A program made the translations under genes and the position numbers. Positions 1-30,078 of a stretch of DNA of 64,000 bases are shown in pieces. The DNA comes from Naegleria gruberi. Its lineage: Eukaryota. Position 1 is the stretch's first letter. Each line of letters starts with the position of its first letter. The notes under the pieces were generated by a model, which made no database searches, was not told the origin of the DNA, and saw only the letters and a program-made list of their open reading frames with translations. The stretch is taken from NCBI GenBank assembly GCA_000004985.1, contig GG738894.1; one strand, given 5' to 3'.

Positions 1-290
1 CAAACCCAAACCCAAACCCAAACCCAAACCCAAACCCAAACCCAAACCCAAACCCAAACCCAAACCCAAACCCAAACCCAAACCCAAACCCAAACCCAAA
101 CCCAAACCCAAACCCAAACCCAAACCCAAACCCAAACCCAAACCCAAACCCAAACCCAAACCCAAACCCAAACCCAAACCCAAACCCAAACCCAAACCCA
201 AACCCAAACCCAAACCCAAACCCAAACCCAAACCCAAACCCAAACCCAAACCCAAACCCAAACCCAAACCCAAACCCAAACCCAAACCCA
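1..290. repeat. Telomeric repeat array, about 48 tandem copies of CCCAAA (G-strand TTTGGG), at the start of the window. It marks the physical chromosome end.
   Basis: Perfect 6-nt periodicity caaacc from position 1 to 290, ending abruptly at cgactaaggt. C-rich strand reads 5'->3' on the top strand, as expected for a left telomere. Confidence 0.9.
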
Positions 291-1094
291 CGACTAAGGT
301 CAGACCCAACATTTTGACTTTTATTCATCTTAATTAATTATCTCAATAAATACTCATTATAAATCAATATATTATATATCAATATACTCCAAATTGAATA
401 TATAATCATATTATAACATAATGTTACATCATTATAATGACTTATATAAGTTAATTTCATATAATAGATTAGACAATTAGAATATCAATGAAAACATTTC
501 AAAATCATTTCAAATCAATATATCATCTTATAAATCATGTCAATAACAAAATATATCAGTTTCAAATACTTTGGTATCATTTCAAGAAATTTACTATTCA
601 ACTTGTCAACTGACCTATACTAACATTGAAGATAGAAATCTATACCACTTCAATTCACTTCCAATACATATATACATGATAATTAAATACATTAATATCA
701 TTTTGACATTCATCCATATCATACATGGTACATGGCTGATCCACTTGATACCTATAGGGATGTGACAATGACATCCACTATACAGATCATCATGAAACTG
801 GTACAGGACCTTACTAATGGTGAATAAACACTACTGTATCAGTTTCATGACAATTTGAAATCATTCAACATGTCAGGAGTGTAATCATGGGAATTATAAA
901 TGTCAAGATAATCAAATCATATTAATTTTAAAATCTTTCAATTACAATATCATATATAGATCAATTAATCATGGTATATCAATAATTGGTATTGAATTTC
1001 ATATCAATTCATTCAAACCTTAATGACCTATCCTTAGATGACCAACTCAATTTTAAACTATCATGAATCATATAACTATTGATATCATTGTGTT
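291..1094. other. Subtelomeric, extremely AT-rich non-coding region
   Basis: No convincing ORF. Only one low-complexity 64-aa ORF. Very low GC; lies between the telomere array and the assembly gap. Confidence 0.5.
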
Positions 1095-3284
1095 NNNNNN
1101 NNNNNNNNNNNNNNNNNNNNNNNNNNNNNNNNNNNNNNNNNNNNNNNNNNNNNNNNNNNNNNNNNNNNNNNNNNNNNNNNNNNNNNNNNNNNNNNNNNNN
1201 NNNNNNNNNNNNNNNNNNNNNNNNNNNNNNNNNNNNNNNNNNNNNNNNNNNNNNNNNNNNNNNNNNNNNNNNNNNNNNNNNNNNNNNNNNNNNNNNNNNN
1301 NNNNNNNNNNNNNNNNNNNNNNNNNNNNNNNNNNNNNNNNNNNNNNNNNNNNNNNNNNNNNNNNNNNNNNNNNNNNNNNNNNNNNNNNNNNNNNNNNNNN
1401 NNNNNNNNNNNNNNNNNNNNNNNNNNNNNNNNNNNNNNNNNNNNNNNNNNNNNNNNNNNNNNNNNNNNNNNNNNNNNNNNNNNNNNNNNNNNNNNNNNNN
1501 NNNNNNNNNNNNNNNNNNNNNNNNNNNNNNNNNNNNNNNNNNNNNNNNNNNNNNNNNNNNNNNNNNNNNNNNNNNNNNNNNNNNNNNNNNNNNNNNNNNN
1601 NNNNNNNNNNNNNNNNNNNNNNNNNNNNNNNNNNNNNNNNNNNNNNNNNNNNNNNNNNNNNNNNNNNNNNNNNNNNNNNNNNNNNNNNNNNNNNNNNNNN
1701 NNNNNNNNNNNNNNNNNNNNNNNNNNNNNNNNNNNNNNNNNNNNNNNNNNNNNNNNNNNNNNNNNNNNNNNNNNNNNNNNNNNNNNNNNNNNNNNNNNNN
1801 NNNNNNNNNNNNNNNNNNNNNNNNNNNNNNNNNNNNNNNNNNNNNNNNNNNNNNNNNNNNNNNNNNNNNNNNNNNNNNNNNNNNNNNNNNNNNNNNNNNN
1901 NNNNNNNNNNNNNNNNNNNNNNNNNNNNNNNNNNNNNNNNNNNNNNNNNNNNNNNNNNNNNNNNNNNNNNNNNNNNNNNNNNNNNNNNNNNNNNNNNNNN
2001 NNNNNNNNNNNNNNNNNNNNNNNNNNNNNNNNNNNNNNNNNNNNNNNNNNNNNNNNNNNNNNNNNNNNNNNNNNNNNNNNNNNNNNNNNNNNNNNNNNNN
2101 NNNNNNNNNNNNNNNNNNNNNNNNNNNNNNNNNNNNNNNNNNNNNNNNNNNNNNNNNNNNNNNNNNNNNNNNNNNNNNNNNNNNNNNNNNNNNNNNNNNN
2201 NNNNNNNNNNNNNNNNNNNNNNNNNNNNNNNNNNNNNNNNNNNNNNNNNNNNNNNNNNNNNNNNNNNNNNNNNNNNNNNNNNNNNNNNNNNNNNNNNNNN
2301 NNNNNNNNNNNNNNNNNNNNNNNNNNNNNNNNNNNNNNNNNNNNNNNNNNNNNNNNNNNNNNNNNNNNNNNNNNNNNNNNNNNNNNNNNNNNNNNNNNNN
2401 NNNNNNNNNNNNNNNNNNNNNNNNNNNNNNNNNNNNNNNNNNNNNNNNNNNNNNNNNNNNNNNNNNNNNNNNNNNNNNNNNNNNNNNNNNNNNNNNNNNN
2501 NNNNNNNNNNNNNNNNNNNNNNNNNNNNNNNNNNNNNNNNNNNNNNNNNNNNNNNNNNNNNNNNNNNNNNNNNNNNNNNNNNNNNNNNNNNNNNNNNNNN
2601 NNNNNNNNNNNNNNNNNNNNNNNNNNNNNNNNNNNNNNNNNNNNNNNNNNNNNNNNNNNNNNNNNNNNNNNNNNNNNNNNNNNNNNNNNNNNNNNNNNNN
2701 NNNNNNNNNNNNNNNNNNNNNNNNNNNNNNNNNNNNNNNNNNNNNNNNNNNNNNNNNNNNNNNNNNNNNNNNNNNNNNNNNNNNNNNNNNNNNNNNNNNN
2801 NNNNNNNNNNNNNNNNNNNNNNNNNNNNNNNNNNNNNNNNNNNNNNNNNNNNNNNNNNNNNNNNNNNNNNNNNNNNNNNNNNNNNNNNNNNNNNNNNNNN
2901 NNNNNNNNNNNNNNNNNNNNNNNNNNNNNNNNNNNNNNNNNNNNNNNNNNNNNNNNNNNNNNNNNNNNNNNNNNNNNNNNNNNNNNNNNNNNNNNNNNNN
3001 NNNNNNNNNNNNNNNNNNNNNNNNNNNNNNNNNNNNNNNNNNNNNNNNNNNNNNNNNNNNNNNNNNNNNNNNNNNNNNNNNNNNNNNNNNNNNNNNNNNN
3101 NNNNNNNNNNNNNNNNNNNNNNNNNNNNNNNNNNNNNNNNNNNNNNNNNNNNNNNNNNNNNNNNNNNNNNNNNNNNNNNNNNNNNNNNNNNNNNNNNNNN
3201 NNNNNNNNNNNNNNNNNNNNNNNNNNNNNNNNNNNNNNNNNNNNNNNNNNNNNNNNNNNNNNNNNNNNNNNNNNNNNNNNNNNN
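1095..3284. other. Assembly gap, a run of 2,190 N
   Basis: Continuous n characters. All ORFs in the track spanning this interval are artefacts of N translated as X. Confidence 0.99.
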
Positions 3285-4602
3285 CATTAGCAAAATAAAC
3301 TTCACCATTTGCTTCAGTGATACAACTAATAATAGTACCTAAACTTGAATTATAAGCAATAGTTCCATCAGTTAAAATTGAAAATTCTGGAAGAGTTACT
3401 CCAGTTCCAGCTTTAAATGTTGCATTTCCATTTGTTTTGTTCAATTCGAATAGCATCATATCATGAGTTGCAAAATAGTTGGTGGAAAGGAATTGAGGAG
3501 AAATGTTGAGAGAAGTTGCTAGCGCAGTTTCTTGACCAAGTGGAATACCAGCAAAATTTTTCGTGTTACAATTTCCAGCTAGGATTTTCCTTTCACCTTC
3601 TTTCGTATAATTATAAACAACCTTTGTCGATTCAGAAACAATCAAATTATCATACATATCCAATAGAACACTATATGGCTTTACCAAACCAGAAACTAGA
3701 ACGCTCTTTGTAAAGGTAGTATCAAGACTAATGTTCAAACTAATCACATTTCCACCATTTTGCTCCACAACATAAACCAAATCTCCTTTTCTAAACATAT
3801 TTCCAGGAAAATTTAAACCTATTTCCTCATGTTTCAATAAAATTGAATTTTCATTTGAAATGTCATATTTAGAAACCTTTCCCGTAGATCCTTGTGAAAT
3901 TATTAAATATTTTCCAGTGGATAGAATTGAATTTGGTCCTCCAAGAATTATTATTGTTGTTGTAATTCTAGTTTGTAAATTAAATTGTCGTATGGCATTG
4001 TTGCTATTGTCAGTAATAAACATTAAATTGTCATCATCTGACAAGGCAACTGACAGAGTTGACGCAAAGAGAACAGAATATGGATCGGTGCTATCATTAT
4101 ATCCAGATGAACCACATTTACCAACAATAGTTGAAATGTTGCCAGTTGTCAAATCAACTCCACGAACACAATTACTAGAACTGACAAAATATAACCAAGT
4201 TTCATTCTTATTAAGTACCATTCCTGTTGGTGCATTCAATTTAGCAGATGTAGCAACAATATTGTTTCCATCATCTCCAGATGCATAACTTCCAGCAAAG
4301 ACAGAGATTACTCCAGTGTTTCCATCAACTTTTCGAATAACATGGTATGTACTATCAGACATGTAGACGGTTCCATCTTTTGCTTGTACAGTATGGGCAA
4401 TTCTAGCAAGACATGACATGCTTGCTGGAAATCCATCACCAAACTGTCTGGTGTATGCTAATGTAATTGGTGAGGTTACACCAGCAAATATGGACACATC
4501 ATATTTAACATCAGATGATGACGCACAAATTAGAGTTGTGTGGAAACTCAGCCAAGTGGTGGCCACAAGGAGAAAACTAATTAGAAGAGCGGATAATGAC
4601 AT
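3285..4602 (-). CDS. Secreted NHL-repeat (six-bladed beta-propeller) protein. The N-terminal about 440 aa are present and the C-terminus is lost in the gap.
   Basis: ATG at 4602..4600 (MSLSALLISFLLVATTWLS, signal-peptide-like) preceded by an A-run. Repeated G/N/D-rich blocks with 'Y.D..NH.IRK.D'-like units typical of NHL repeats. ORF runs uninterrupted into the N gap. Confidence 0.55.
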
Positions 4603-4859
4603 TTTTTTTTGAAGACTAAGAAAGTAATTGTGTGGCAAAGAATTTAGGAGTGTTTCCACCAATTCCTGGTGGTTCTAACATGAGAACAAACCATAGTAAC
4701 TGTTTCCATGGATTGATGGAAAAGAACATGTGTGGTACTTGGTTTCTTTTAGAAGTGTCAAAACTAATGTGATTTGGAAAGTATTAATCAAGCCAATAAC
4801 AATCTTCCAAATTTTATGAAGAGTTTGACAAATTGATTGAATATTAATTTTTGATTAGT

Positions 4860-15866: not shown

Positions 15867-18800
15867 ATGGCCAAACAATCAAATCAAAGCACCAATGGCT
15901 TTTATTTATCCGTCATGATGATGATCGTGTTTCTATCATTGTGTTGTATGATTGAAAATTCTCTACAACAAAATTTTGTCACCTTCAATTATTATCCAAA
16001 TGAAGGGAAGCTTTTCTCCTCCGATAGCAAATTCGTCAATGTTCAGGGGAGTATTCAAAGTGGTTATTGTAATGCCCTACTGAGTGATTTTGAGCAGTAT
16101 GGAGCATCGGCTTTTTGTTTTTCAGACAATGCTGGTCTGACCATTTATTTGGGATATGGATATTCATTGAGTGGGATTAGATCAGGAACGGACAGTGATG
16201 GAAGATTTGTGAAAATTGAACCAGCTTCTTCTGTTGATTTCAGTGCTGCACTAGATCAGTTAACTATTAATCCTTCGAGAAATTCATATATGATTGTGAG
16301 TGCTGTGGGAAGCTATGTTAATCTGCCAGGAGCTCGATTAAGCTATTCCGTTATTACTAGTGATGCAAAAGTGAATCAATATTTGGCAAAACGTTATCAA
16401 ACTCAAAATCCAATTATTTTCTTTCCATTAACTGAACTTTCTGGTACCTCATTACAAATACAACTTTCTGCTAATTCGTCTGATTGGAATTTGGCGAGAT
16501 CAGCTTCTACGATCATTAAAAATGTTTCGTATGATAGGAGGACATCGTACAACTATGGAAAATCATCAACAAAGTGCGTAGACTATAATTGTTTTATAGA
16601 GACAATGGTAAACGAGACACTTGTGGATAATCCTTCAGTTAATTATTATTTTAATGGAAATTTAGCATCAAGTTTGAATAACTTTCAAATGGCAAAGTTT
16701 ACACCAGCAATTTTTAAATTGACATCTAGTTCTACAACTTTGAAAACTGTTTTCACCACAAACGAAACTTTAAACACTGACATAATAACTGATTCATTTT
16801 CATTATTAACTGGTTATTATTTGAAGAATGGTGATAAAATTCACTCTCAAAGTCAACCGATCACTATCATTTTGGAATCAAGAGACACAAATGCTTTCCC
16901 ATTGGAAGCTATTACTTCTCTGAATTGGTATTTGAGTGTTTCAGCAAGTGTTGACCTTTCTCAATATTCCAACAAGAGATATTTGACATTACCTGCCAAC
17001 ATATTCTCTTCCAATCAAGTTTTGGTAAAAGCAGAGGTCAATTTCAACGATGGAACGCAAATAACTCTTTCAACCACTTTATATATTCAGAATATTGGAA
17101 CTTTAACATTGACTATGGATCCAACAAGCCCATATCTCACATCGGGGGCACAAGTCAATTTGATAACTTATGTAAATGTACCTACAGTTACTATTCAATC
17201 CGTTGTGTATGAAGATAGCGCATCGAAATACATTTCTCTTGATTCAATCAAATCAGAGTTTAATACTAGCTCTATAATTTCCGCAACACTTAAGGCAGAT
17301 ACTCCAGGATCGCTTAGTTTTATGCAAACTATCAAGCTCACTTCAGGAATATCTCTCTATAATTATATTTCAACAAAGGTCATGCCTAAATATCCACTTA
17401 TTTCTGGTTGTTCTGTTTTGCCAAGTTATGGAATCGGTTATGAAGATTTGTTTGGAGTCTCATGTCCAATGGCTCTTGACCAAACCAAGATTTCATCCGT
17501 TAGAGTTGAAGTCTATCAAGACACCGAAAAGCTTTTCACCCTTTTCAATACCAAAACTGCAAACTTTGCAACAAGATTGCCTTTAACCTTAGCAACAACT
17601 AGTAGTTATGTACAGGTAACAATTACAGATATTTTTGGATATTCACACTCGTCTGTCAAATTTTATTACTCTGCTAGTATGAATCAAAATTATCCTACAA
17701 CACTGTTGGGCAGGATTGAAAGGATTCAATTCTATTTGAGCCAAACAAAGGCAAGAAACTTCCAAACGGCAACTAATTATGGTATATTGTTAAACTTGTT
17801 AACAAATGGCATGCTCACAAGTGCTACCGCAATTGAAATTTCTCAATATTCAGTACAATGGAACTCATTCTTGGATTATTTTGTATCTGAATTGGATATT
17901 CTAAGAAGAACCATTTTTCACAGCTCTGTCTACGATAGGGCTGTACCATTATTGGCACCTCTACTTAGAGAAATTGTTGATTTTGCCGATAAGGTTTCGG
18001 CATACACAACTTTAATATCAACAAAGAAACAAGTGCTTGTACAAAATGCAGAATTTTTGATTAGTAATGACAAATCAGGATGGCTATCTACGAGGGATCG
18101 TGCAGCTATTGTCAGAATTTTGGGATCAGTCACTGCTTCAGATCAAACAACGTTTTGGAATGTTACCTCATTAACAGATATTTCAGATTTCAGCACAGCT
18201 TTCAAATCACAACTTTCCAAGTTAGATTCCATGTTTAACAGAGGATTAGATTTATCTCCTTTTGGATTTAATAAGCAAATTAGCAAATTTGATACACTAT
18301 TCGATTTATCATCAGCCCAGAGAAGCATTTCAGGTTTGACAGTTCAAATGCCAGCATTAACTCTCAATGATTATGGTTATCCAGCCAATAGCTATTCTCT
18401 CTTACTTACAAGTTATGATATTTCAACTCAAGTATCCTCAAAGAAATTTAGTCTAAGTACTGGAAACTATTCAAGGTTTTGTGGAAATACACTCTTTTCA
18501 ATTGATGTTGGAAGGAGTGATGGAAGTATTTTGGGAGTTTCAGGACTCTCATCACCTATTATTCTCACAATGGATTTATCTCTTGATAGTTCTTTAGCCA
18601 CTTCAATTAGTAGTGTTAATTTTACTTGTAGATATTTGGCTGAAAACAATATGTGGTCTACGAGTGGTGTGGCAACAGAGGTCGTAACAGTTGGTTCAGC
18701 ATCAGTTAAAGTCAGATGTAAAAGTAACCATCTCAGTACCTTTACAGTTTTTGCAGATGATGTTTATGTCTCCACAACTAATAATTCAACAACCTCAAAT

Positions 18801-20036
18801 ACCGATAAGGTAATACAATCAGGATTATCGCAAGGAGAAATTGCTGCTGCTGTGGTAGTGCCTGTCGTTGTTGTTTTAATTATTACTGTAATTATTATTG
18901 GAATTGTTATTTTCCTGTTATTGAGAATGAAGAGAAAGAAAAAAGCTAATACAGCAGAACCTAAAAAGATGAAGAAAGAAATCAATGCTTACCAAGCTGA
19001 TTCAGTTAAATATGACGACCTAAAGATTGAAATGAGCAGTAACATGTTTATCTCTGATTACAAATCGCTCAATTCGAATACTATTCCTTCTGCAACTTCT
19101 GTTCAATCAACAGAGACACCAACGAGTTATAATGTTACAACTCCATCCACATCTACGAATGTCATTAACAAGAAATATGAAATTTTGGAAAAGATTGGTG
19201 CAGGAGGTTTCGGCGCAGTTTTTAGAGCTAGAAACTTGTTTTTCAATCATGGATCCAAAACTGTCAATGATTTGGAATATTATGCCATTAAGAAGATTCA
19301 ATTATCTGGTCTGTCCGAGTTGAATGACAAATTCAAGGAAGCTGTCAACATGTTCAAGATTCGTCACGAAAATTTAGTATCCTTGGAAGATGCAGTGGTT
19401 GATGAATCAACCAATTCCCTCTATCTAGTAATGAAATTTTATGGAAATGGAGATTTGGATCATTTTGTAAAGAGTAAGAGAATGCTTCCAGAACAAGTAC
19501 TTAAACAAATCATTGTTCAGGTTTGCAGAGGTTTGAAATATTTGGAAGAAGAAAGAGGTTTAATTCACAGAGATATCAAACCATCCAATGTATTTGTTGA
19601 ATATTTCGATTCTGAAAGAGATAACATTAAGGTAGTAGTGTCTGACTTTGGTTTAGCCAAAGAGTCGAACATGATGACTTCAGTTTCGTTTGCAGGAACA
19701 CCATTTTTCATGAGTCCACAAGCATTAATTGGTTCCAAGTACAGTTTCAATGCTGACATATTTTCACTAGGTTGTAGCATCTTTTTAATGATTACACACG
19801 ACATGTCCTCATCCATTGCTCAATTATACTTCCAAAAAGCAGGAAATCAAGGTCAGGTACATGAATTTATCAGAGACAATATTAAGAAGGCATGCCAGAA
19901 TAGTAGAACAATTTCATACAGTGATGAATTTATCGATATTTTATTGAAATTAATGGAATTTGATGCAGATACTAGACCTAATGCAGCAAAAGTTTTGGAA
20001 ATGATTGAAAATTCAGTGGAAATTACAACTGTTTAA
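15867..20036 (+). CDS. Receptor-like Ser/Thr protein kinase. Signal peptide, large glycosylated ectodomain ending in a GPS/GAIN-like motif, single TM, cytoplasmic kinase. Intronless, 1389 aa.
   Basis: N-terminal hydrophobic signal. About 980-aa ectodomain with many N-x-S/T sites. Near the membrane, FTCRYLAENNMWSTSGV...VKVRCKSNHLSTFTVFA resembles the GPS (C..W..C.C.HL..F) signature. TM is AAAVVVPVVVVLIITVIIIGIVIFLLL. Kinase motifs GAGGFGAV, AIKK, HRDIKPSN, DFGLAK. Confidence 0.75.
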   Translation: MAKQSNQSTNGFYLSVMMMIVFLSLCCMIENSLQQNFVTFNYYPNEGKLFSSDSKFVNVQGSIQSGYCNALLSDFEQYGASAFCFSDNAGLTIYLGYGYSLSGIRSGTDSDGRFVKIEPASSVDFSAALDQLTINPSRNSYMIVSAVGSYVNLPGARLSYSVITSDAKVNQYLAKRYQTQNPIIFFPLTELSGTSLQIQLSANSSDWNLARSASTIIKNVSYDRRTSYNYGKSSTKCVDYNCFIETMVNETLVDNPSVNYYFNGNLASSLNNFQMAKFTPAIFKLTSSSTTLKTVFTTNETLNTDIITDSFSLLTGYYLKNGDKIHSQSQPITIILESRDTNAFPLEAITSLNWYLSVSASVDLSQYSNKRYLTLPANIFSSNQVLVKAEVNFNDGTQITLSTTLYIQNIGTLTLTMDPTSPYLTSGAQVNLITYVNVPTVTIQSVVYEDSASKYISLDSIKSEFNTSSIISATLKADTPGSLSFMQTIKLTSGISLYNYISTKVMPKYPLISGCSVLPSYGIGYEDLFGVSCPMALDQTKISSVRVEVYQDTEKLFTLFNTKTANFATRLPLTLATTSSYVQVTITDIFGYSHSSVKFYYSASMNQNYPTTLLGRIERIQFYLSQTKARNFQTATNYGILLNLLTNGMLTSATAIEISQYSVQWNSFLDYFVSELDILRRTIFHSSVYDRAVPLLAPLLREIVDFADKVSAYTTLISTKKQVLVQNAEFLISNDKSGWLSTRDRAAIVRILGSVTASDQTTFWNVTSLTDISDFSTAFKSQLSKLDSMFNRGLDLSPFGFNKQISKFDTLFDLSSAQRSISGLTVQMPALTLNDYGYPANSYSLLLTSYDISTQVSSKKFSLSTGNYSRFCGNTLFSIDVGRSDGSILGVSGLSSPIILTMDLSLDSSLATSISSVNFTCRYLAENNMWSTSGVATEVVTVGSASVKVRCKSNHLSTFTVFADDVYVSTTNNSTTSNTDKVIQSGLSQGEIAAAVVVPVVVVLIITVIIIGIVIFLLLRMKRKKKANTAEPKKMKKEINAYQADSVKYDDLKIEMSSNMFISDYKSLNSNTIPSATSVQSTETPTSYNVTTPSTSTNVINKKYEILEKIGAGGFGAVFRARNLFFNHGSKTVNDLEYYAIKKIQLSGLSELNDKFKEAVNMFKIRHENLVSLEDAVVDESTNSLYLVMKFYGNGDLDHFVKSKRMLPEQVLKQIIVQVCRGLKYLEEERGLIHRDIKPSNVFVEYFDSERDNIKVVVSDFGLAKESNMMTSVSFAGTPFFMSPQALIGSKYSFNADIFSLGCSIFLMITHDMSSSIAQLYFQKAGNQGQVHEFIRDNIKKACQNSRTISYSDEFIDILLKLMEFDADTRPNAAKVLEMIENSVEITTV

Positions 20037-21728: not shown

Positions 21729-22472
21729 ATGATTCGACAACTTCAGGTAGCTTTCGGCTTGTTTATTTGCTGTGCATTTCTTCTGCATGTTGCACTGTGC
21801 ATTCCACCTGGACAAGTTGTGAACATTAACAATTGGTATCTTACCCTTCCAATAGGAAGCTATAAGAATCCACAAAACATCTACCAGCCGAATCTAAACA
21901 CATTCGAAAGTGATCCGTATTTTGTTACTGGAAACGATGGAAACAGCATTAGATTTAGAGTTCCAATCCATAAACAAACTGTTACAACATCTGGAAGTAG
22001 TTATCCAAGAACTGAGTTGAGAGAAATGGATTCGTCTAATCCTTCCAAGACGAAAGTTGCTTGGACGAATTCAGATAAAGGAGTTCATACCATGATTATT
22101 GATCAGGCAATCACTCACCTCCCAATCAAGAGAAATCGACTTGCGGCAGGTCAAATCCACGATGACAATGAATTTGTCATTATTATTCAATTGACAGGAA
22201 GTCAACTTTTTGTAAAAACAAATAAGAATGCAAATGCCAAAGTTTTAGATAGTAACTATCAATTAGGCACTAGATTCCTCTTGAAAATCGAAGGATTTGG
22301 TGGAATTACCAATATTTATTATAATGACATGACGAAAGCTGCCTATTCCTATGAATATTCGTATAAGAATGCCTATTTCAAAGCAGGATGTTATTCGCAA
22401 TCAAATTGTGATTATGAACAAGAATTGTGTACAGACACTTCGTTTGTTGAGATTGTTTATGGAAATATTTAA
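21729..22472 (+). CDS. Secreted polysaccharide-lyase family 7 (alginate lyase 2-like) protein
   Basis: Signal peptide, then the three PL7 signature blocks in order: YPRTELREM (R-S/T-E-L-R-E), QIHDD (QIH) and YFKAGCYSQ (YFKAG-V/I-Y-N/S-Q). The 247-aa size fits a single jelly-roll PL7 catalytic module. Confidence 0.6.
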   Translation: MIRQLQVAFGLFICCAFLLHVALCIPPGQVVNINNWYLTLPIGSYKNPQNIYQPNLNTFESDPYFVTGNDGNSIRFRVPIHKQTVTTSGSSYPRTELREMDSSNPSKTKVAWTNSDKGVHTMIIDQAITHLPIKRNRLAAGQIHDDNEFVIIIQLTGSQLFVKTNKNANAKVLDSNYQLGTRFLLKIEGFGGITNIYYNDMTKAAYSYEYSYKNAYFKAGCYSQSNCDYEQELCTDTSFVEIVYGNI

Positions 22473-24350: not shown

Positions 24351-25880
24351 TTACAATTCTTCATAAACTTTTTCATTGTTAATTCCAATTTTCTTCATCA
24401 TTTCAATTTCTTCACTTGATTTCCCATATTGAATTAGTCTTAATGAGAAAATAACTGGCGATTCGACAAGCTGAAGGATCATTCCAGTCAATTGAGCACA
24501 AATCAAATAGAGAAATCCAAAATTTTCCCAAACGAAACCTTTCAACAATTTCGAATCATCTTGGAAACTGTCCCTACAAAAATACAACACCAAGGCACAT
24601 GCAAATCCGCTCACCATTTTGCATCTTTCAATTTGATGCAAAATGTTATTGGTTTGCTCGTCACCACTCCAGAGTTGACTAAACATGTAGTTCAGTAAAT
24701 TGTTTTTTGAGGATTTGACACTTTGAAACACTAAATTGGATCTCAATTTCATGGAATTGAAAAGATTGACATTTGGGGTAACACTGTGAACAAGTAGTGA
24801 GCGACTTGTCAAGAGTAAAATTAAACAACAAATGACAAATAGCAGACATCCAATTCCAAATAATAAGGAAAATGCAATTATCAAGATAATGCACAATATT
24901 CCCAGAGTTAGAGATACTGGATCCATATTAGTTTCTCTAAAAGTTTCCGATTTCTCATAATAATAAGTTTTTTCAGTTCGAGTAATCGTTTTGGTTGATC
25001 TCTTGTCAATTACATCCATAACTTTGGAACAGAATGCAATAATTGGAAAACTAATTGATACAGAAATGACACACAAATCTCTGAGAACAATGATCAAATG
25101 ATGAACTGTTGTGAAAATTGAAAAAATGGTCAACTCAATTCCTTTGTACAAGAAATTGTTAAAAAATAAATGAAAGGGGGAGAACCATCTTCTAGAATCA
25201 AACACCTCCATAAATATTAACTCTGAAATTGTGATATGAACAATATTAGTCATGATTTCCATTAATAGAAAGGTCAGTAATATTTCACTGTAAAGGACGA
25301 ACTTGTCTGCTTGTGAATTGAAGATTGAAAATACCAATAAAACCAATATTACTTGCATAAACAAGCCAAATATTACTAATCCAATCGATTGCTTTAAAAT
25401 CTTCCATGAAAATTTGGTGACATCTGCACTGACATTGAAAACTGACGTTTGTTTGAAAGTTCTAATCAAATCTAATACTAATACAACAAATGAATAAATT
25501 GCCAACAAGCTGAATAACCATTTAGATTGATCATCTTCCAACTTTCCATTGAAAAACATGTAGAAAGCAAACAAACAAAGAGAAGCTCCAAAAAAGAAAC
25601 TTCCAATAAAGTGAATTGTCAAGTAAATGATTCTATCTTTGCAATACAGTTCTATAAAGAACAGAGAAGTGAATACTATTCCTATCAGTATTGAAAAACC
25701 AATAACAGTTTGCAAAATGTCAACAAACAACGAAGCCACAATCTTGTCAACAAGTGTCACGAGTGAAAAATCAACAATTTTACAAGCCAGCAAGTAAATA
25801 ACAATAAAAGCCAAAGGACTTGTACAGATCAACCCTTTGAGAATGATTGTTAGTGCATTAGGAAAGTTTCCAGTTGTCAT
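24351..25880 (-). CDS. Polytopic integral membrane protein of about 12 TM helices, unknown family
   Basis: Continuous ORF. The track start is a TTG, and the first ATG (MTTGNFPNAL) at 25880 has an A-rich context. Hydrophobic helices throughout; no recognisable transporter signature. Confidence 0.45.
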   Translation of the reverse strand: MTTGNFPNALTIILKGLICTSPLAFIVIYLLACKIVDFSLVTLVDKIVASLFVDILQTVIGFSILIGIVFTSLFFIELYCKDRIIYLTIHFIGSFFFGASLCLFAFYMFFNGKLEDDQSKWLFSLLAIYSFVVLVLDLIRTFKQTSVFNVSADVTKFSWKILKQSIGLVIFGLFMQVILVLLVFSIFNSQADKFVLYSEILLTFLLMEIMTNIVHITISELIFMEVFDSRRWFSPFHLFFNNFLYKGIELTIFSIFTTVHHLIIVLRDLCVISVSISFPIIAFCSKVMDVIDKRSTKTITRTEKTYYYEKSETFRETNMDPVSLTLGILCIILIIAFSLLFGIGCLLFVICCLILLLTSRSLLVHSVTPNVNLFNSMKLRSNLVFQSVKSSKNNLLNYMFSQLWSGDEQTNNILHQIERCKMVSGFACALVLYFCRDSFQDDSKLLKGFVWENFGFLYLICAQLTGMILQLVESPVIFSLRLIQYGKSSEEIEMMKKIGINNEKVYEEL

Positions 25881-26076
25881 ATTTTTTTTCTTATTGAATT
25901 TCAAAACGTGAAAACGTGATTAAACACAATCAAACTATTCTCCAATATCCACTCTATCTCATTCCAATCTCAAATCCACTTCCTTCCCTTCAAACTTCAT
26001 CTCAAAATCATCTCAATTTCCAAAATAGCCGTTACAAAAAAATCAAAAAAAAACATAAATTTCAACTCAAAAAAAA

Positions 26077-27783
26077 ATGAAAAGAACAAAGAGGGACGAT
26101 CCTGTTGCTCTCGTCATTGATTTGGCATCATCATCATCGGACGAAGAAGAAGAAGAAGAGGAACAGCAAAAGGAACAACAATCAAATAAAATTAGATGCA
26201 CAAATTGCCGTAAAGGGCACTCCAAATGTTCATCTCTGCAGGACGGAATTTTTCCATGCAAAAGATGTAAGGATAAGAAGAAGGAATGTATTCCAGTGAA
26301 TTTTAAAAGAGGTATGAAGGAATCCGACTCTAAAACATCATCAAAATCTTCAAAATCTCCATCATCAAAATCATCAGCGAGTGGAAAATCAAACAACAAG
26401 AAAAATTCATCAAGTCAAACATCATCTTCATCATCAATAGTACAAACAGTTGTTAAAAAGGAAGAGGAACCAAAGAAGAAACGAAAAGTGGTGAAGGATG
26501 AATCCGATGATAGTCCAACAAGTAAGCCACTTCTCACCAATCTGAATGGTCACTCACAACACGATCAAATCGAACCATTCGATGAGACAACTTATAACAA
26601 TTTTGAAAGATATTCGGAGAGATTATTGGAAGTAACATCTGATGATGGAAGATCGAATACTACTTCCTTCATTAACAATAATAATAATAATAACAATAAT
26701 AATAGTATGAATATATTTCTTGCTAGGATGCCTAATGGAGATTTAAACTTGATGAGAGCTCCATCACTTCTTCAATCCAAAATAATGTTGGAGAAAATGG
26801 TTGCAGAACCTGAAACTGCAATGATTTATCAGTATGATGGTCCTCTGTGTTTTGGATTTTCTCCCACTGTTAGACCTCTAGCATCTGCAGAACAGTACAT
26901 GATTAATCAAGTCAGTACTTTATCAAAATCTAGGGATACTCTACTTCATCAACATTTTGTGGAAAACTACAAGAAGAATCACATGCTTGATTGTAAATTT
27001 AGAGTTTATGATGTGGAATCGAAAACTGAGGTCGATTTGGAATGTCACTCTGCTGTTGTACTTTCCTTTAGTCCTTATCTGAGATCTCTCGTCAAACCAA
27101 CAGCGACTCAACCAGTATTTAAATTTGGAAACAAATTTCACTATGTAAATAAGAATGCACTGTTAAATATTATCGAATTTCTCTATCTAGGAAAGAAAAT
27201 TGCTGGGAGTATGGATGAACTGTTTGATATTGTACTTTGCTCAATTTTGATGGACATTGAAGAAGTCAAGTATGCAGCATGTCTCACTATTATTACTAAA
27301 TTATTCAAGGAAGGTCAAATTGCACCACTCAAACCTAAAAGAGCTGCCAAAATAGTTGGAGTTTTACATTTTGCAGATGAACACTTTTTGCAATTACTCA
27401 TTCAAGCAATTTTCAATAGGATCGTGAGAGAAGATGTTGGAGAAGAATTGAAACAACATGGATTGAGTAAACATTTATTAGAAAAACTGAGAAGTTGGCA
27501 AGAATATCGAGATGGAGTTGTGTGGAATGAAGAAGGACTCACTAAGGATGTCTCTATGAAACTTGACAATAATACCCTCTCAACCAAAACATGGCACAAA
27601 TTGACCAAAACTGCCTACCCAAACAGACAATACTGTCAATCGAAAGAAGATCTCAAAGAAGTCATCATTTCCGAGCAAATAGAACACGACCTAAAGAAAG
27701 CTAAAGAAGCAACAAACTCTCAATCATTAAGCAGCCCTAAAAAATCCATTCACAAACGTGTTGTTTCTAATCAACTTTTGTAA
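26077..27783 (+). CDS. Putative transcription factor with an N-terminal Zn2Cys6 binuclear cluster and a central BTB/POZ-like domain. Intronless, 568 aa.
   Basis: CTNCRKGHSKCSSLQDGIFPCKRCKDKKKEC fits C-x2-C-x6-C-x(5-12)-C-x2-C-x6-C. Poly-Ser/Glu and poly-Asn linkers. Residues about 300-400 (DLECHSAVVLSFSPYLRSL...ALLNIIEFLYLGK...LFDIVLCSILMDIEEV) align with the BTB core. Confidence 0.65.
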   Translation: MKRTKRDDPVALVIDLASSSSDEEEEEEEQQKEQQSNKIRCTNCRKGHSKCSSLQDGIFPCKRCKDKKKECIPVNFKRGMKESDSKTSSKSSKSPSSKSSASGKSNNKKNSSSQTSSSSSIVQTVVKKEEEPKKKRKVVKDESDDSPTSKPLLTNLNGHSQHDQIEPFDETTYNNFERYSERLLEVTSDDGRSNTTSFINNNNNNNNNNSMNIFLARMPNGDLNLMRAPSLLQSKIMLEKMVAEPETAMIYQYDGPLCFGFSPTVRPLASAEQYMINQVSTLSKSRDTLLHQHFVENYKKNHMLDCKFRVYDVESKTEVDLECHSAVVLSFSPYLRSLVKPTATQPVFKFGNKFHYVNKNALLNIIEFLYLGKKIAGSMDELFDIVLCSILMDIEEVKYAACLTIITKLFKEGQIAPLKPKRAAKIVGVLHFADEHFLQLLIQAIFNRIVREDVGEELKQHGLSKHLLEKLRSWQEYRDGVVWNEEGLTKDVSMKLDNNTLSTKTWHKLTKTAYPNRQYCQSKEDLKEVIISEQIEHDLKKAKEATNSQSLSSPKKSIHKRVVSNQLL

Positions 27784-28015: not shown

Positions 28016-30078
28016 TTGCACAATATAGAGATGAAGTATCAAAGAAACAAGTTACTGTCATTATGTTTATTGGCCATTGTTGGATTAATGTTCATGATAG
28101 GAGGATTGAATGGACAGAAGGATTGTCCCTCCTATCGTTCCAAACACTACTTTCCAAGGATGAGATATGAAAATGATGGCACCACCACTCGATCGGAATA
28201 TTTGACAATGAGGGATGGTGTAAAGATTGCCTGTGATTTATATTTGCCATACAGGGCTGTTAATGAAAATCACAGATTGCCAACATTGTTGCACGTGACC
28301 AGATATTACAGATCTTACAAGGTGAATTGGCCATTTAATTATCTTGTTGGAGATAAGATTAGTATTAATGGAATTCCATTCCCAAAATTCTTGGCTCGTG
28401 GATATGCCATTGTTAGTTGCGATACTAGGTATGTTTTACATATAATATAACTTATTAACATAGTATCAAAAGAGGTTCTGGTGTTAGTTTCGGAAAGAGA
28501 TTATACGATTTCCACAGAGATGAAGTTCAAGATTTCAAGGAAGTTCTCGATTGGATTACCAAACAAAAGTTCAGTAATGGAAAGATTGTTTCTACTGGTA
28601 TTTCGTATGATGGCATGGTCACTGATTTCTTGACCTCTTTGAATCATCCAGCTTTGGTTGCTGTTTCTTCAATTTCAGGACCATTCGATATCTATAGGGA
28701 TACAATCTATCCTGGTGGTATTTATCAAAAGTCATTTATTGATTATTATTTGAAATTTACACAAACTGTCGAGTCTGGAGAGATGATTACTAGATCTGAT
28801 TTGTGTGCTGGTTGTGCTCCAGAAACACTCAAGGAAAAGATTATGGACAAGTTGGCTAAACTTCTCCTCGGTGGTGTTAACCCTGTGGATTCCAATGATT
28901 TGGAAACTATGAGAAAAGCCATTGAATCACACAAGGACTCTACTGACATGTTGGATGTTGTTCATCATCTTGAAAAAGGTATCAATAAGATTGTTACCAC
29001 AGACAAGTTCACCTATGAAATGGAAAGAGATGGACCAATGAGAGTCATTGCTGATAATAAGAAGAGAATTCCAATATTAGTATTTGGTGGCTATTATGAA
29101 AGTATGGTTTTGAATAGTGTTGTAAAAAGATTCTACTCTTTATATCACAAGGACAGCAGATTGATTATGGGACCTTACAATCACGGTCTCAAGGTAATCA
29201 ACTCACCTTACTCAGAAACCACCACACCATGTTTTGATGCCTTTGAGGAAATTATGAGATTCTTTGATCATCATTTAGGATTGGAGGAAGATCTTGGACT
29301 CGAAAATGAAAAACAAGTTCACTACTATTCTATTGGATCTGAAAAGTGGTTCTCAGTTGACAGTTGGCCACCAAAAGCTGAAGAGAAGGTTTTACATTTG
29401 AGTAATGCTGGAGCCCTCGTATCCGAGAAGACTGAATTGAATCATGTTTTAAAGCTTAATATGGAGGAAGAAACACTCATTGACTGTAAGTGGAATATGT
29501 TAACTTCACTCTTCCAAAAAGCTACCAAATACTCTGCAACCTTGTCCTCTCCTCAATTCTCCAATGGAAAGCTCAATTATATCTCACAACCATTGAGTGA
29601 AGATTTGGAAATTACTGGTTATCCTCACCTCACTGTTGAATTATCTGCCAACAATCGTGATGGATTGATTTTTGCCTATTTGCAAGAAGTTGACACCAAG
29701 GGAACTGTTAACTTTGTCATGGATACTCAATTGAGACTCGTCCATCGTAAATTGAATTTACACAGAAATACCAGTGGACTCATTGATGTAGTTCCACATC
29801 ATACCTTCTACGTGGAGGATCGTCAATATTTAGAACCAAACCAAAAGACCACCATTCAATTATACTTCCCAGCTGTTTCCTACACTGTCAAGAAGGGTCA
29901 CTCTCTCAAGCTTTCCCTCTTCTCATTCGATAAGATTAACTTTAAGATTTTTGAGAATGAATCTGATCTTTCCAGTGAGCTCTTCCTTCACAGTGCCTCT
30001 CTCCATCTTCCAATCGTTCACTCTCGTCCAGAATCTTCTTCTTTACATTCTGATAATTCTAATAAGGATGAGCTCTAA
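28016..30078 (+). CDS. CocE/NonD-family (peptidase S15, Xaa-Pro dipeptidyl-peptidase-like) hydrolase, two exons
   Basis: Exon 1 28016-28428, a 44-nt GTATGT...AG intron at 28429-28472, exon 2 to 30078. Splice restores ...CDTRGSGVSFG. GISYDGM nucleophile motif (GxSxG), N-terminal signal/TM anchor, long C-terminal beta-sandwich region as in CocE/NonD. Confidence 0.7.

What the first reader, a model, noticed from the sequence alone, without database searches (positions are those of the whole stretch)
26077..27783. Zn2Cys6 binuclear-cluster DNA-binding domain fused to a BTB/POZ domain
Zn2Cys6 clusters, typical of fungal Gal4-like regulators, normally dimerise via a coiled-coil. Here a perfect six-Cys cluster is followed by Ser/Glu/Asn homopolymers and a BTB-like fold. 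BTB would supply dimerisation or Cullin-3 adaptor function, giving an atypical transcription-factor design.
Basis: partly seen in the sequence, partly recalled or inferred. Interest (0 to 1): 0.5.

Follow-up and report, generated by a model that had tools for sequence, protein, structure and literature searches.

The report
Naegleria zinc-cluster factor fused to BTB
This is a real Naegleria gruberi gene whose protein joins a Gal4-type zinc-cluster DNA-binding module to a BTB protein-interaction domain, an unusual but evolutionarily local way of building a probable transcription regulator.

Summary
Window 26077..27783 (+) is one uninterrupted 568-aa ORF, identical to the annotated Naegleria gruberi protein NAEGRDRAFT_59091. 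UniRef names it only "BTB domain-containing protein".

- **Zinc cluster.** Residues 41-71 carry a C-x2-C-x6-C-x9-C-x2-C-x6-C skeleton. It occurs once in the six-frame window, against 0.003 expected by chance. Pfam Zn_clus is sub-threshold (16.6 bits, cut-off 21). A profile built from published N. fowleri Zn_clus domains scores 20.7 bits (p=1.6e-8), and the match goes beyond the cysteines (0 of 2000 Cys-fixed shuffles reach it).
- **Origin.** That paralog and a Willaertia magna homolog share the N-terminal acidic motif, a "WPNGD" module, the BTB and the C-terminal region, but lack the zinc cluster. The cluster, a Ser-rich linker and an exact PKKKRKV nuclear signal therefore form an insertion specific to this gene.

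Zinc clusters are already known as Naegleria's largest transcription-factor family. This is a new variant, not a new kind. The likely function, a nuclear DNA-binding factor dimerised through BTB, is inferred and untested. Moderate interest.

The parts
26077..27783 (+). Complete single-exon gene (568 codons plus stop), equal to N. gruberi NAEGRDRAFT_59091
   Evidence: ORF list. 100% identity and coverage to the public protein.
26104..26163 (+). N-terminal motif VALVIDLASSSSDEEEEEEE (res 10-29): a hydrophobic core followed by a Ser/acidic run. It resembles a phospho-regulated SUMO-interaction motif, and is conserved in type in both homologs.
   Evidence: Alignment A1: P0002 has TLVLSSDDEDEDD and P0004 has RVSLSSSDEEEE at the same place. 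The SIM reading comes from my own knowledge of SIM consensus and was not tested.
26191..26313 (+). Zn2Cys6 binuclear-cluster module of the Naegleria type (res 39-79; six Cys at 41, 44, 51, 61, 64, 71; CRKGHSKC ... KEC ... KRG)
   Evidence: Pattern is unique in the window, 0.003 expected. Pfam Zn_clus E=0.0084. Best PDB sequence hits are Leu3 (E=0.025, gapless over all six Cys) and Pho7. N. fowleri-derived HMM gives 20.7 bits, p=1.6e-8. 0 of 2000 Cys-fixed shuffles reach the observed score, and it is the only positive hit in the six-frame window.
26323..26436 (+). Ser/Lys-rich low-complexity linker (res 83-120), predicted disordered
   Evidence: Direct reading. pLDDT below 50 for res 70-210.
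26470..26490 (+). PKKKRKV (res 132-138), identical to the classical SV40 large-T monopartite nuclear localisation signal
   Evidence: Direct reading. Identity with the SV40 NLS is from my own knowledge. P0002 has KKRK at the aligned position.
26674..26703 (+). Asn10 homopolymer (res 200-209), the end of the gene-specific insertion
   Evidence: Direct reading. Absent from both homologs.
26710..26859 (+). 'WPNGD' module (res 212-261; predicted strand-strand-helix-strand). It is conserved in the three family members and has no known family match.
   Evidence: Invariant P219, N220, D222, P245, Y253, G255. Secondary structure and pLDDT 60-69. No Pfam hit at E<=10.
26941..27309 (+). BTB/POZ domain, long form with N-terminal helix (res ~289-411; Pfam match 297-392; signature CHSAVVLSFSPYLRSLV ... 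LLNIIEFLYLGK)
27259..27513 (+). Helical extension after the BTB core (res 395-479; the start overlaps the last BTB helix). It superposes on the 3-box/BACK or BHB helices of Cul3 adaptors and NPR1.
27514..27723 (+). C-terminal region conserved in the family (res 480-549; invariant W506, P515), fold unknown and low confidence
   Evidence: Alignment A1/A2. pLDDT ~37-57.

Best explanation
The gene encodes a nuclear, sequence-specific DNA-binding regulator. It was assembled in the Naegleria gruberi lineage by inserting a Naegleria-type Zn2Cys6 module into a duplicate of an older heterolobosean BTB protein. The insertion also carries a disordered Ser/Lys/Asn-rich linker and a PKKKRKV nuclear signal.

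Proposed mechanism:
1. The NLS takes the protein into the nucleus.
2. The Zn2Cys6 module binds two zinc ions and reads a short DNA half-site. It presents R45, K46, H48 and K50 between Cys2 and Cys3, which is the DNA-contacting stretch in Gal4 and Leu3.
3. The long-form BTB domain about 220 residues downstream homodimerises. It replaces the coiled coil that dimerises fungal zinc-cluster factors, so two DNA-reading heads hang on long flexible tethers.
4. The BTB plus its helical extension serves as the docking surface for effector partners.

Shown here: the single ORF; the identity of both domains; the absence of a predicted coiled coil and of a fungal middle-homology region; and the absence of the Zn module from the paralog and from the Willaertia homolog.

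Inferred, not shown: zinc binding, DNA binding, nuclear localisation, dimerisation and partner recruitment.
For: - **Gene model.** One ORF, equal to the public gene model.
- **Zn2Cys6 module.**
  - The pattern is unique in the window, 0.003 expected.
  - Pfam Zn_clus E=0.0084.
  - Best PDB sequence hits are the Leu3 and Pho7 DNA-binding domains, with all six Cys aligned to Leu3 without gaps.
  - An HMM built from 17 N. fowleri Zn_clus domains (PMC8296547 Table S3) gives 20.7 bits, p=1.6e-8.
  - With the Cys fixed and other residues shuffled, 0 of 2000 reach the observed 25.1 bits (mean 5.8, sd 3.9).
  - The module shares the Naegleria consensus CRKGH-KC, KEC and KRG.
- **Family context.** Zn_clus is the largest DNA-binding family in Naegleria (78 in N. 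gruberi), with varied architectures (PMC5611559).
- **No other dimerisation element.** No helix is predicted in residues 67-169, and no Fungal_trans domains are found.
- **Insertion.** Alignment A1. The Willaertia protein is closer to the Zn-less paralog (9e-30, including a shared C-terminal tail) than to this protein (1e-17). No six-Cys motif occurs in 13.5 kb around the Willaertia gene.
Against: - Both Pfam matches are below their gathering cut-offs.
- AlphaFold modelled the zinc-cluster segment with low confidence. In the full model pLDDT is 35-55.
- Folded alone, the segment came out as a beta, zinc-ribbon-like shape (mean pLDDT 62) with no significant PDB match. The fold of this module is therefore supported by sequence only.
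- The main base-contacting Lys of Gal4-type domains is His here. His is the Naegleria family norm, but nothing is known about DNA recognition by that family.
- No transcript, expression or orthologue evidence was obtainable. No homolog carrying both domains was found anywhere.
- Some zinc-cluster proteins work as monomers, so dimerisation is not obligatory.
Confidence: 0.6

Rival explanations
1. DNA- or chromatin-tethered Cullin-3 substrate adaptor. The BTB plus 3-box/BACK-like helices bind Cul3. The zinc cluster (and perhaps the N-terminal SIM-like motif) brings the ligase to specific loci or to SUMOylated chromatin proteins, so the output is ubiquitylation rather than direct transcriptional control.
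Against: No Kelch, MATH or other recognised substrate-binding domain is present. By direct reading, the loop after the second BTB helix pair (res 340-346, KPTATQP) has no phi-x-Glu motif. That motif contacts Cul3 in SPOP, KLHL and KEAP1; this is my own knowledge, without a structural alignment, so it is a lead only. BTB domains of transcription factors (BCL6, myoneurin, ZBTB8A, Miz-1, Kaiso, BACH) match almost as well. This rival is not exclusive of the main explanation.
Confidence: 0.2
2. The cysteine module is not a working DNA-binding domain. It is either a degenerate relic of a domain-shuffling event or a different small zinc module (for example a CxxC...CxxC zinc ribbon used for protein contacts). 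The protein then does whatever its Zn-less relatives do.
For: Pfam Zn_clus is below threshold. The isolated AlphaFold model is ribbon-like, and its weak PDB neighbours are zinc-ribbon proteins. The C3-C4 loop has 9 residues, longer than the 4-7 (mostly 5) seen in the 17 N. fowleri domains sampled. The family exists and is conserved without the module.
Against: All six Cys are at canonical spacing, with the duplicated C-x2-C-x6-C half-units. Family-specific non-Cys residues are retained (0 of 2000 Cys-fixed shuffles). The 9-residue loop equals that of the solved Leu3 DNA-binding domain. The ribbon-like model is a low-confidence single-sequence prediction with no significant match (E>3). An intact NLS accompanies the module.
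Confidence: 0.12
3. Annotation or expression artefact: the long ORF is not expressed as such. The real start could be a downstream Met, there could be an unrecognised intron, or the gene could be decaying.
For: No transcript evidence could be retrieved. There is no orthologue with the same architecture. The gene lies about 26 kb from a chromosome end, a region type where young or decaying genes are common (my own general knowledge).
Against: A 1,707-nt open frame in 34% G+C DNA is very unlikely without selection. The segment upstream of the Zn module (basic residues, hydrophobic core, SSSDEEEE) matches the true N-termini of both homologs. The Zn module therefore lies between two conserved parts of the protein. 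All motifs are intact.
Confidence: 0.05

Closest known systems
Naegleria Zn_clus (Zn2Cys6) transcription-factor expansion (78 genes in N. gruberi, 56-58 in N. fowleri; Herman et al. 2021, PMC8296547 Table S3; Scazzocchio 2014, PMC5611559)
   Same: Same organism group and same domain subtype. It shares the Naegleria consensus I-x-C-x2-C-R-K-G-H-[RS]-K-C ... K-E-C ... K-R-G. The placement near the N-terminus is like many listed N. fowleri members.
   Different: The C3-C4 loop is longer (9 residues). The match is below the Pfam cut-off, so it was probably not counted in those censuses, and its public name mentions only BTB. No BTB partner domain is described for this family in the texts I could search.
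Fungal Gal4/Leu3/Pho7-type Zn2Cys6 regulators (Pfam PF00172)
   Same: Six-Cys binuclear skeleton, Arg after Cys2, Lys before Cys3, Pro before Cys4. The spacing is identical to the solved Leu3 DNA-binding domain.
   Different: No linker plus coiled-coil dimerisation element (no helix predicted in residues 67-169). No Fungal_trans middle-homology region. His replaces the key base-contacting Lys. The C-terminal partner is a BTB domain.
Metazoan BTB-DNA-binding-domain factors: BTB-C2H2 (ZBTB: BCL6, PLZF, Miz-1, Kaiso, myoneurin), BTB-bZIP (BACH1/2), BTB-AT-hook (PATZ1)
   Different: The domain order is reversed (DNA-binding module N-terminal, BTB C-terminal). The DNA-binding fold is different. The origin is independent, in Heterolobosea. 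The BTB here carries a BACK/3-box-like extension that ZBTB proteins lack. It works like them; it is not a member.
Cul3 adaptors and relatives with BTB plus helical extension (KEAP1, SPOP, KLHL3/11/22, KBTBD2/4, vaccinia A55; plant NPR1)
   Same: These are the best structural matches, and they cover the BTB plus following helices.
   Different: No Kelch, MATH or ankyrin substrate domain. No evident phi-x-Glu Cul3-contact motif (direct reading only). Sequence identity is 11-19%.
Zn-less heterolobosean paralog family: N. gruberi NAEGRDRAFT_53239 (P0002) and Willaertia magna KAL9649836.1 (P0004)
   Same: True homologs. BLASTP 2e-21 and 1e-17 over the WPNGD module, BTB, helical extension and C-terminal region. 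The same type of N-terminal basic/hydrophobic/SSSDEEEE motif is present.
   Different: They lack the roughly 160-residue Zn2Cys6/Ser-rich/NLS/Asn insertion. They keep a C-terminal tail (HP..A.LM.RADLT.IDV) that this protein has lost.
Yeast CBF3 centromere complex (Cep3 Zn2Cys6 protein working with Skp1, a BTB-fold protein)
   Different: There the two folds are on separate polypeptides, and Skp1 is the short, non-dimeric BTB form. This is only an analogy.

Membership tests
Zn2Cys6 binuclear cluster (Pfam PF00172 Zn_clus) | Six cysteines spaced C-x2-C-x6-C-x5-12-C-x2-C-x6-8-C | tested here: met
   C41, C44, C51, C61, C64, C71 with spacings 2, 6, 9, 2, 6. Unique in the six-frame window, 0.003 expected.
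Zn2Cys6 binuclear cluster (Pfam PF00172 Zn_clus) | Significant match to the general family profile | tested here: inconclusive
   E=0.0084, 16.6 bits, below the curated cut-off of 21 bits. PDB sequence search: Leu3 E=0.025, Pho7 E=0.3.
Zn2Cys6 binuclear cluster (Pfam PF00172 Zn_clus) | Match to the lineage's own Zn_clus domains beyond the cysteines | tested here: met
   HMM of 17 N. fowleri domains: 20.7 bits, p=1.6e-8. Cys-fixed shuffles: 0 of 2000 reach the observed score. It is the only positive hit in the window.
Zn2Cys6 binuclear cluster (Pfam PF00172 Zn_clus) | Basic DNA-contact residues between Cys2 and Cys3, and Pro before Cys4 | tested here: met
   Direct reading: C-R45-K46-G-H48-S-K50-C and F-P60-C61.
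Zn2Cys6 binuclear cluster (Pfam PF00172 Zn_clus) | Gal4-like two-helix fold binding two Zn ions | tested here: inconclusive
   AlphaFold without zinc or an alignment: pLDDT 35-55 in the full model. Mean 62 and ribbon-like when folded alone, with no significant PDB match.
Zn2Cys6 binuclear cluster (Pfam PF00172 Zn_clus) | Sequence-specific DNA binding | not testable with these tools
   Needs PBM, SELEX or DAP-seq.
Fungal zinc-cluster regulator architecture (Gal4 type) | Coiled-coil dimerisation element after the cluster, and a Fungal_trans middle-homology region | tested here: not met
   No helix predicted in residues 67-169. No PF04082 or PF11951 hit at E<=10. It has the fungal-type DNA-binding module, but it is not a member of the fungal full-length architecture.
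BTB/POZ domain (Pfam PF00651) | Match to the family profile | tested here: inconclusive
   This protein: E=0.0021, 18.6 bits, cut-off 20.5. The homologous region of the paralog P0002: 8.5e-10, 39.2 bits. P0001-P0002 homology: 5e-14 and 2e-21.
BTB/POZ domain (Pfam PF00651) | BTB core fold | tested here: met
BTB/POZ domain (Pfam PF00651) | Homodimerisation through the long-form N-terminal element | not testable with these tools
   A helix (res 289-299) precedes the first strand, and nearly whole dimeric BTB domains superpose. No multimer prediction or experiment was available.
Cul3 substrate adaptors (BTB-BACK-Kelch, MATH-BTB) | 3-box/BACK helices after the BTB | tested here: met
   Structural alignments extend 140-203 residues into the 3-box/BACK of KEAP1, SPOP, KLHL3/11/22 and A55.
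Cul3 substrate adaptors (BTB-BACK-Kelch, MATH-BTB) | Dedicated substrate-binding domain (Kelch, MATH, etc.) | tested here: not met
   No such Pfam domain at E<=10.
Cul3 substrate adaptors (BTB-BACK-Kelch, MATH-BTB) | Cul3 binding (phi-x-Glu loop motif) | not tested
   By eye, the loop KPTATQP (res 340-346) has no such motif. No residue-level structural alignment or binding assay was available.
Metazoan BTB-zinc-finger (ZBTB) factors | N-terminal BTB followed by C-terminal C2H2 fingers | tested here: not met
   The order is reversed and there are no C2H2 fingers. This is a functional analogy only.

The most novel reading that the evidence does not exclude
The protein is a locus-specific ubiquitin (or SUMO-dependent) chromatin regulator. 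A Naegleria zinc cluster would target a BTB-BACK Cul3 adaptor to defined DNA sites, while the N-terminal VIDL-SSSSDEEEE motif reads SUMO. This would be a one-polypeptide 'DNA-guided E3 adaptor', captured at the moment of its origin by domain insertion into a Zn-less paralog.
Probability: 0.15. Interest if true: 0.55.

Novelty: new variant of a known kind. Interest (0 to 1): 0.35.

Why it matters
BTB domains have been joined to C2H2, bZIP, AT-hook and HTH DNA-binding modules in animals. A Zn2Cys6-BTB join in a heterolobosean amoeba would be an independent invention of the same design with a different DNA reader.

It also shows concretely how Naegleria's puzzling zinc-cluster expansion spreads: by insertion into unrelated scaffolds. 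The donor-less paralog and the Willaertia homolog give a clean before-and-after pair.

There is a practical point too. The gene falls below the Pfam cut-offs for both domains, so censuses of Naegleria transcription factors that rely on those cut-offs probably miss it. A lineage-specific profile recovers it.

The biological weight is limited. It is one gene in one species, with no expression or functional data.

Tried and rejected
1. **Large-database homolog searches.**
   - The full protein and its C-terminal 353 residues found only the protein itself.
   - The exhaustive HMMER scan of 1.84 billion representatives found two real relatives, plus one spurious hit to a 3,428-aa bacterial repeat protein (P0003, 25 repeats, score inflated by repetition; rejected).
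   - A profile of the three family members found nothing further.
   - No N. fowleri or N. lovaniensis homolog appeared.
2. **Metagenome scan** with the family alignment: 509 pattern matches, none confirmed.
3. **Look-up of encoding contigs** for P0001 and P0002, hoping for transcriptome assemblies: not on record.
4. **AlphaFold of residues 32-86 alone, plus Foldseek:** low confidence, ribbon-like, no significant match. Uninformative rather than negative.
5. **phmmer of the BTB regions of P0001 and P0002 against PDB sequences:** no hits. I therefore could not obtain a residue-level alignment to judge the Cul3-contact motif.
6. **afdb50 fold library:** not available.
7. **RPRD1B coiled-coil hit** to the WPNGD region (E=0.012). 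I judged it chance: helical low-information match, not reproduced by structure.
8. **Literature text searches** for Naegleria with Zn2Cys6 or 'binuclear cluster', and for Zn_clus or Zn2Cys6 with BTB, found no description of such a fusion. The one fungal paper with both terms concerns separate neighbouring genes.
9. **Neighbouring genes** are functionally unrelated: S15 peptidase, alginate-lyase-like, kinase and a multi-pass membrane protein. No operon-like context applies in this eukaryote.
Full report
**What is there.** The window is Naegleria gruberi DNA. The ORF at 26077..27783 (+) encodes 568 residues. It is 100% identical over its full length to the public protein NAEGRDRAFT_59091 (XP_002672856.1, EFC40112.1, UniRef D2VSF5 'BTB domain-containing protein'). 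The gene has no intron in the public model. It sits in ordinary 34% G+C coding DNA, about 26 kb from a (CCCAAA)n scaffold end.

**The zinc cluster.**
- Residues 41-71 read CTNCRKGHSKCSSLQDGIFPCKRCKDKKKEC, which is C-x2-C-x6-C-x9-C-x2-C-x6-C.
- This pattern occurs once in the six-frame translation of all 64 kb. Chance expectation from composition is 0.003, with no hit in 200 shuffles.
- Pfam Zn_clus matches residues 41-72 at E=0.0084, 16.6 bits, under the 21-bit cut-off.
- Against PDB sequences the best hits are zinc-cluster DNA-binding domains: Leu3 (E=0.025, all six Cys aligned without a gap) and Pho7.

The decisive evidence came from the literature. Herman et al. 2021 (PMC8296547, Table S3) list the Zn_clus domains of N. 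fowleri, and show Zn_clus to be the largest DNA-binding family in Naegleria: 78 in N. gruberi and 56-58 in N. fowleri. These domains share a distinctive consensus, for example IACVQCRKGHRKCDKRLPNCSNCKRLGKECSYRSPKKRG. The window's IRCTNCRKGHSKC...PCKRCKDKKKECIPVNFKRG follows that consensus.

I built an HMM from 17 of the N. fowleri domains and tested the window against it:
- It scores the query at 20.7 bits, p=1.6e-8.
- With the cysteines held in place and all other residues shuffled, none of 2000 versions reached the observed 25.1 bits (mean 5.8, sd 3.9, max 22.0).
- The site is the only positive-scoring one in the six-frame window.

The module is therefore a member of Naegleria's own zinc-cluster family, with an unusually long third loop. 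The structure could not confirm this. AlphaFold gives the segment pLDDT 35-55 in the full model. Folded alone, it gives a ribbon-like model of mean pLDDT 62 with no significant PDB neighbour.

**The BTB domain.**
- Pfam BTB matches residues 297-392 at E=0.0021, 18.6 bits, cut-off 20.5.
- The AlphaFold model, built on a three-sequence alignment, has pLDDT 75-89 across roughly residues 280-410.
- Foldseek against the PDB returns BTB domains as its top 44 hits. KEAP1 is best at E=9e-6, followed by SPOP, NPR1, KBTBD2, KLHL11, BCL6, BACH1/2 and Kaiso.

This is a long-form BTB with a helical extension of the kind seen in Cul3 adaptors and NPR1.

**Relatives and origin.** An exhaustive HMMER scan of 1.84 billion representatives found only two true relatives of the C-terminal 353 residues:
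- N. gruberi NAEGRDRAFT_53239 (P0002, 447 aa, E=5e-14)
- Willaertia magna KAL9649836.1 (P0004, 475 aa, E=2.6e-4)

P0002 passes Pfam BTB at 8.5e-10. All three proteins share four features:
- an N-terminal basic stretch followed by a hydrophobic core and SS(S)DEEEE
- a conserved 'WPNGD' module
- the BTB with its helical extension
- a C-terminal region with invariant Trp and Pro

Neither relative has a zinc cluster. No six-Cys motif exists in 13.5 kb around the Willaertia gene. The Willaertia protein is closer to P0002 (9e-30, including a shared C-terminal tail) than to the window's protein (1e-17).

The simplest reading is as follows. A Zn-less BTB gene predates the Naegleria-Willaertia split and was duplicated. 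One copy then acquired a roughly 160-residue insertion between the acidic N-terminus and the WPNGD module. The insertion comprises the zinc cluster, a Ser/Lys-rich linker, PKKKRKV and Asn10. Because the zinc cluster lies between two segments that are conserved in the relatives, it is very unlikely to be an annotation artefact of a mis-called start.

**How it probably works.** PKKKRKV (res 132-138) is identical to the SV40 large-T nuclear signal (my own knowledge), so a nuclear location is expected. Zinc-cluster factors normally dimerise through a coiled coil after the cluster. Here no helix is predicted in residues 67-169, and there is no fungal middle-homology region. The long-form BTB is the obvious substitute.

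I therefore favour a BTB-dimerised, bivalent DNA-binding regulator with long flexible tethers. This is analogous to animal BTB-zinc-finger and BTB-bZIP factors, but with the domain order reversed and a different DNA reader. The BTB-BACK-like surface could recruit co-regulators or Cul3. The adaptor reading is the main rival and is not exclusive of the favoured one. Against it:
- There is no substrate-binding domain.
- By eye, the loop that contacts Cul3 in SPOP, KLHL and KEAP1 has no phi-x-Glu motif. This could not be checked with a residue-level alignment.

Zinc binding, DNA binding, dimerisation and localisation are all inferred.

**What is known already, and novelty.** Zinc clusters outside fungi, and their expansion in Naegleria with 'a variety of architectures', were pointed out by Scazzocchio 2014 (PMC5611559). 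Shelest 2017 noted the same patchy distribution (PMC5415576), and Herman et al. 2021 quantified the Naegleria expansion.

Within the searchable literature I found no description of a zinc-cluster-BTB fusion. This protein's public name mentions only BTB. I could not query domain-architecture databases, so the combination may exist elsewhere unnoticed.

I rate it a new variant of known kinds, of moderate interest. It is a tidy case of convergent transcription-factor design and of domain accretion, but it rests on a single lineage-specific gene without functional data.

Noticed in passing
window 1-290 (and 300-1094, 1095-3284): The window begins with about 48 perfect tandem copies of CCCAAA (TTTGGG on the other strand). 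This looks like a telomere-type array at a scaffold end. It is followed by very AT-rich DNA and then a 2.2-kb run of N (assembly gap). The long 'ORFs' listed at 1009-4662 are artefacts of the N run.
   Followed up: no
window 21729-22472 (+): A 247-aa ORF matches Pfam Alginate_lyase2 (PF08787) at 1.6e-33. That is a bacterial-type polysaccharide lyase in an amoeba genome, and a possible horizontal acquisition.
   Followed up: no
window 28016-28450 and 28615-30078 (+): Two adjacent ORFs carry the N-terminal and C-terminal parts of an X-Pro dipeptidyl-peptidase S15 domain plus PepX_C. This is evidently one gene split by an intron or introns.
   Followed up: partly
L001 6001-7492 (Willaertia magna JBEGDK010000089.1): The public gene model for KAL9649836.1 appears to splice out part of its BTB domain. 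Frame 1 reads on as CHKAVFSLYSPVLKEKLENV..., a typical BTB signature, before the model jumps to ...NLTKFHTLLNEQTALLIIEFLYSGE in another frame. This probably explains why the protein has no Pfam BTB hit.
   Followed up: partly
window 26104-26163 (res 10-29), plus P0002 res 16-29 and P0004 res 17-27: All three family members start with a hydrophobic core followed by a Ser/acidic run (VIDLASSSSDEEEEEEE, LVLSSDDEDEDD, VSLSSSDEEEE). This resembles CK2-regulated SUMO-interaction motifs such as those of PIAS proteins. The resemblance is recalled from memory and not tested.
   Followed up: no
window 26710-26859 (res 212-261): A conserved 'WPNGD...PYNGPLFFDF' module precedes the BTB in all three family members. 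It has no Pfam or PDB sequence match and only moderate model confidence. It may be an undescribed small domain specific to Heterolobosea.
   Followed up: partly
window 15867-20036 (+): A 1,389-aa ORF has a C-terminal protein kinase domain (1.9e-43) and a long N-terminal region without a confident family match. It looks like a receptor-like kinase.
   Followed up: no
window 24351-25904 (-): The divergently oriented neighbour is a 517-aa hydrophobic, apparently multi-pass membrane protein with no Pfam match. It is separated from the finding's start codon by only about 170-190 bp, implying a very short shared promoter region.
   Followed up: no
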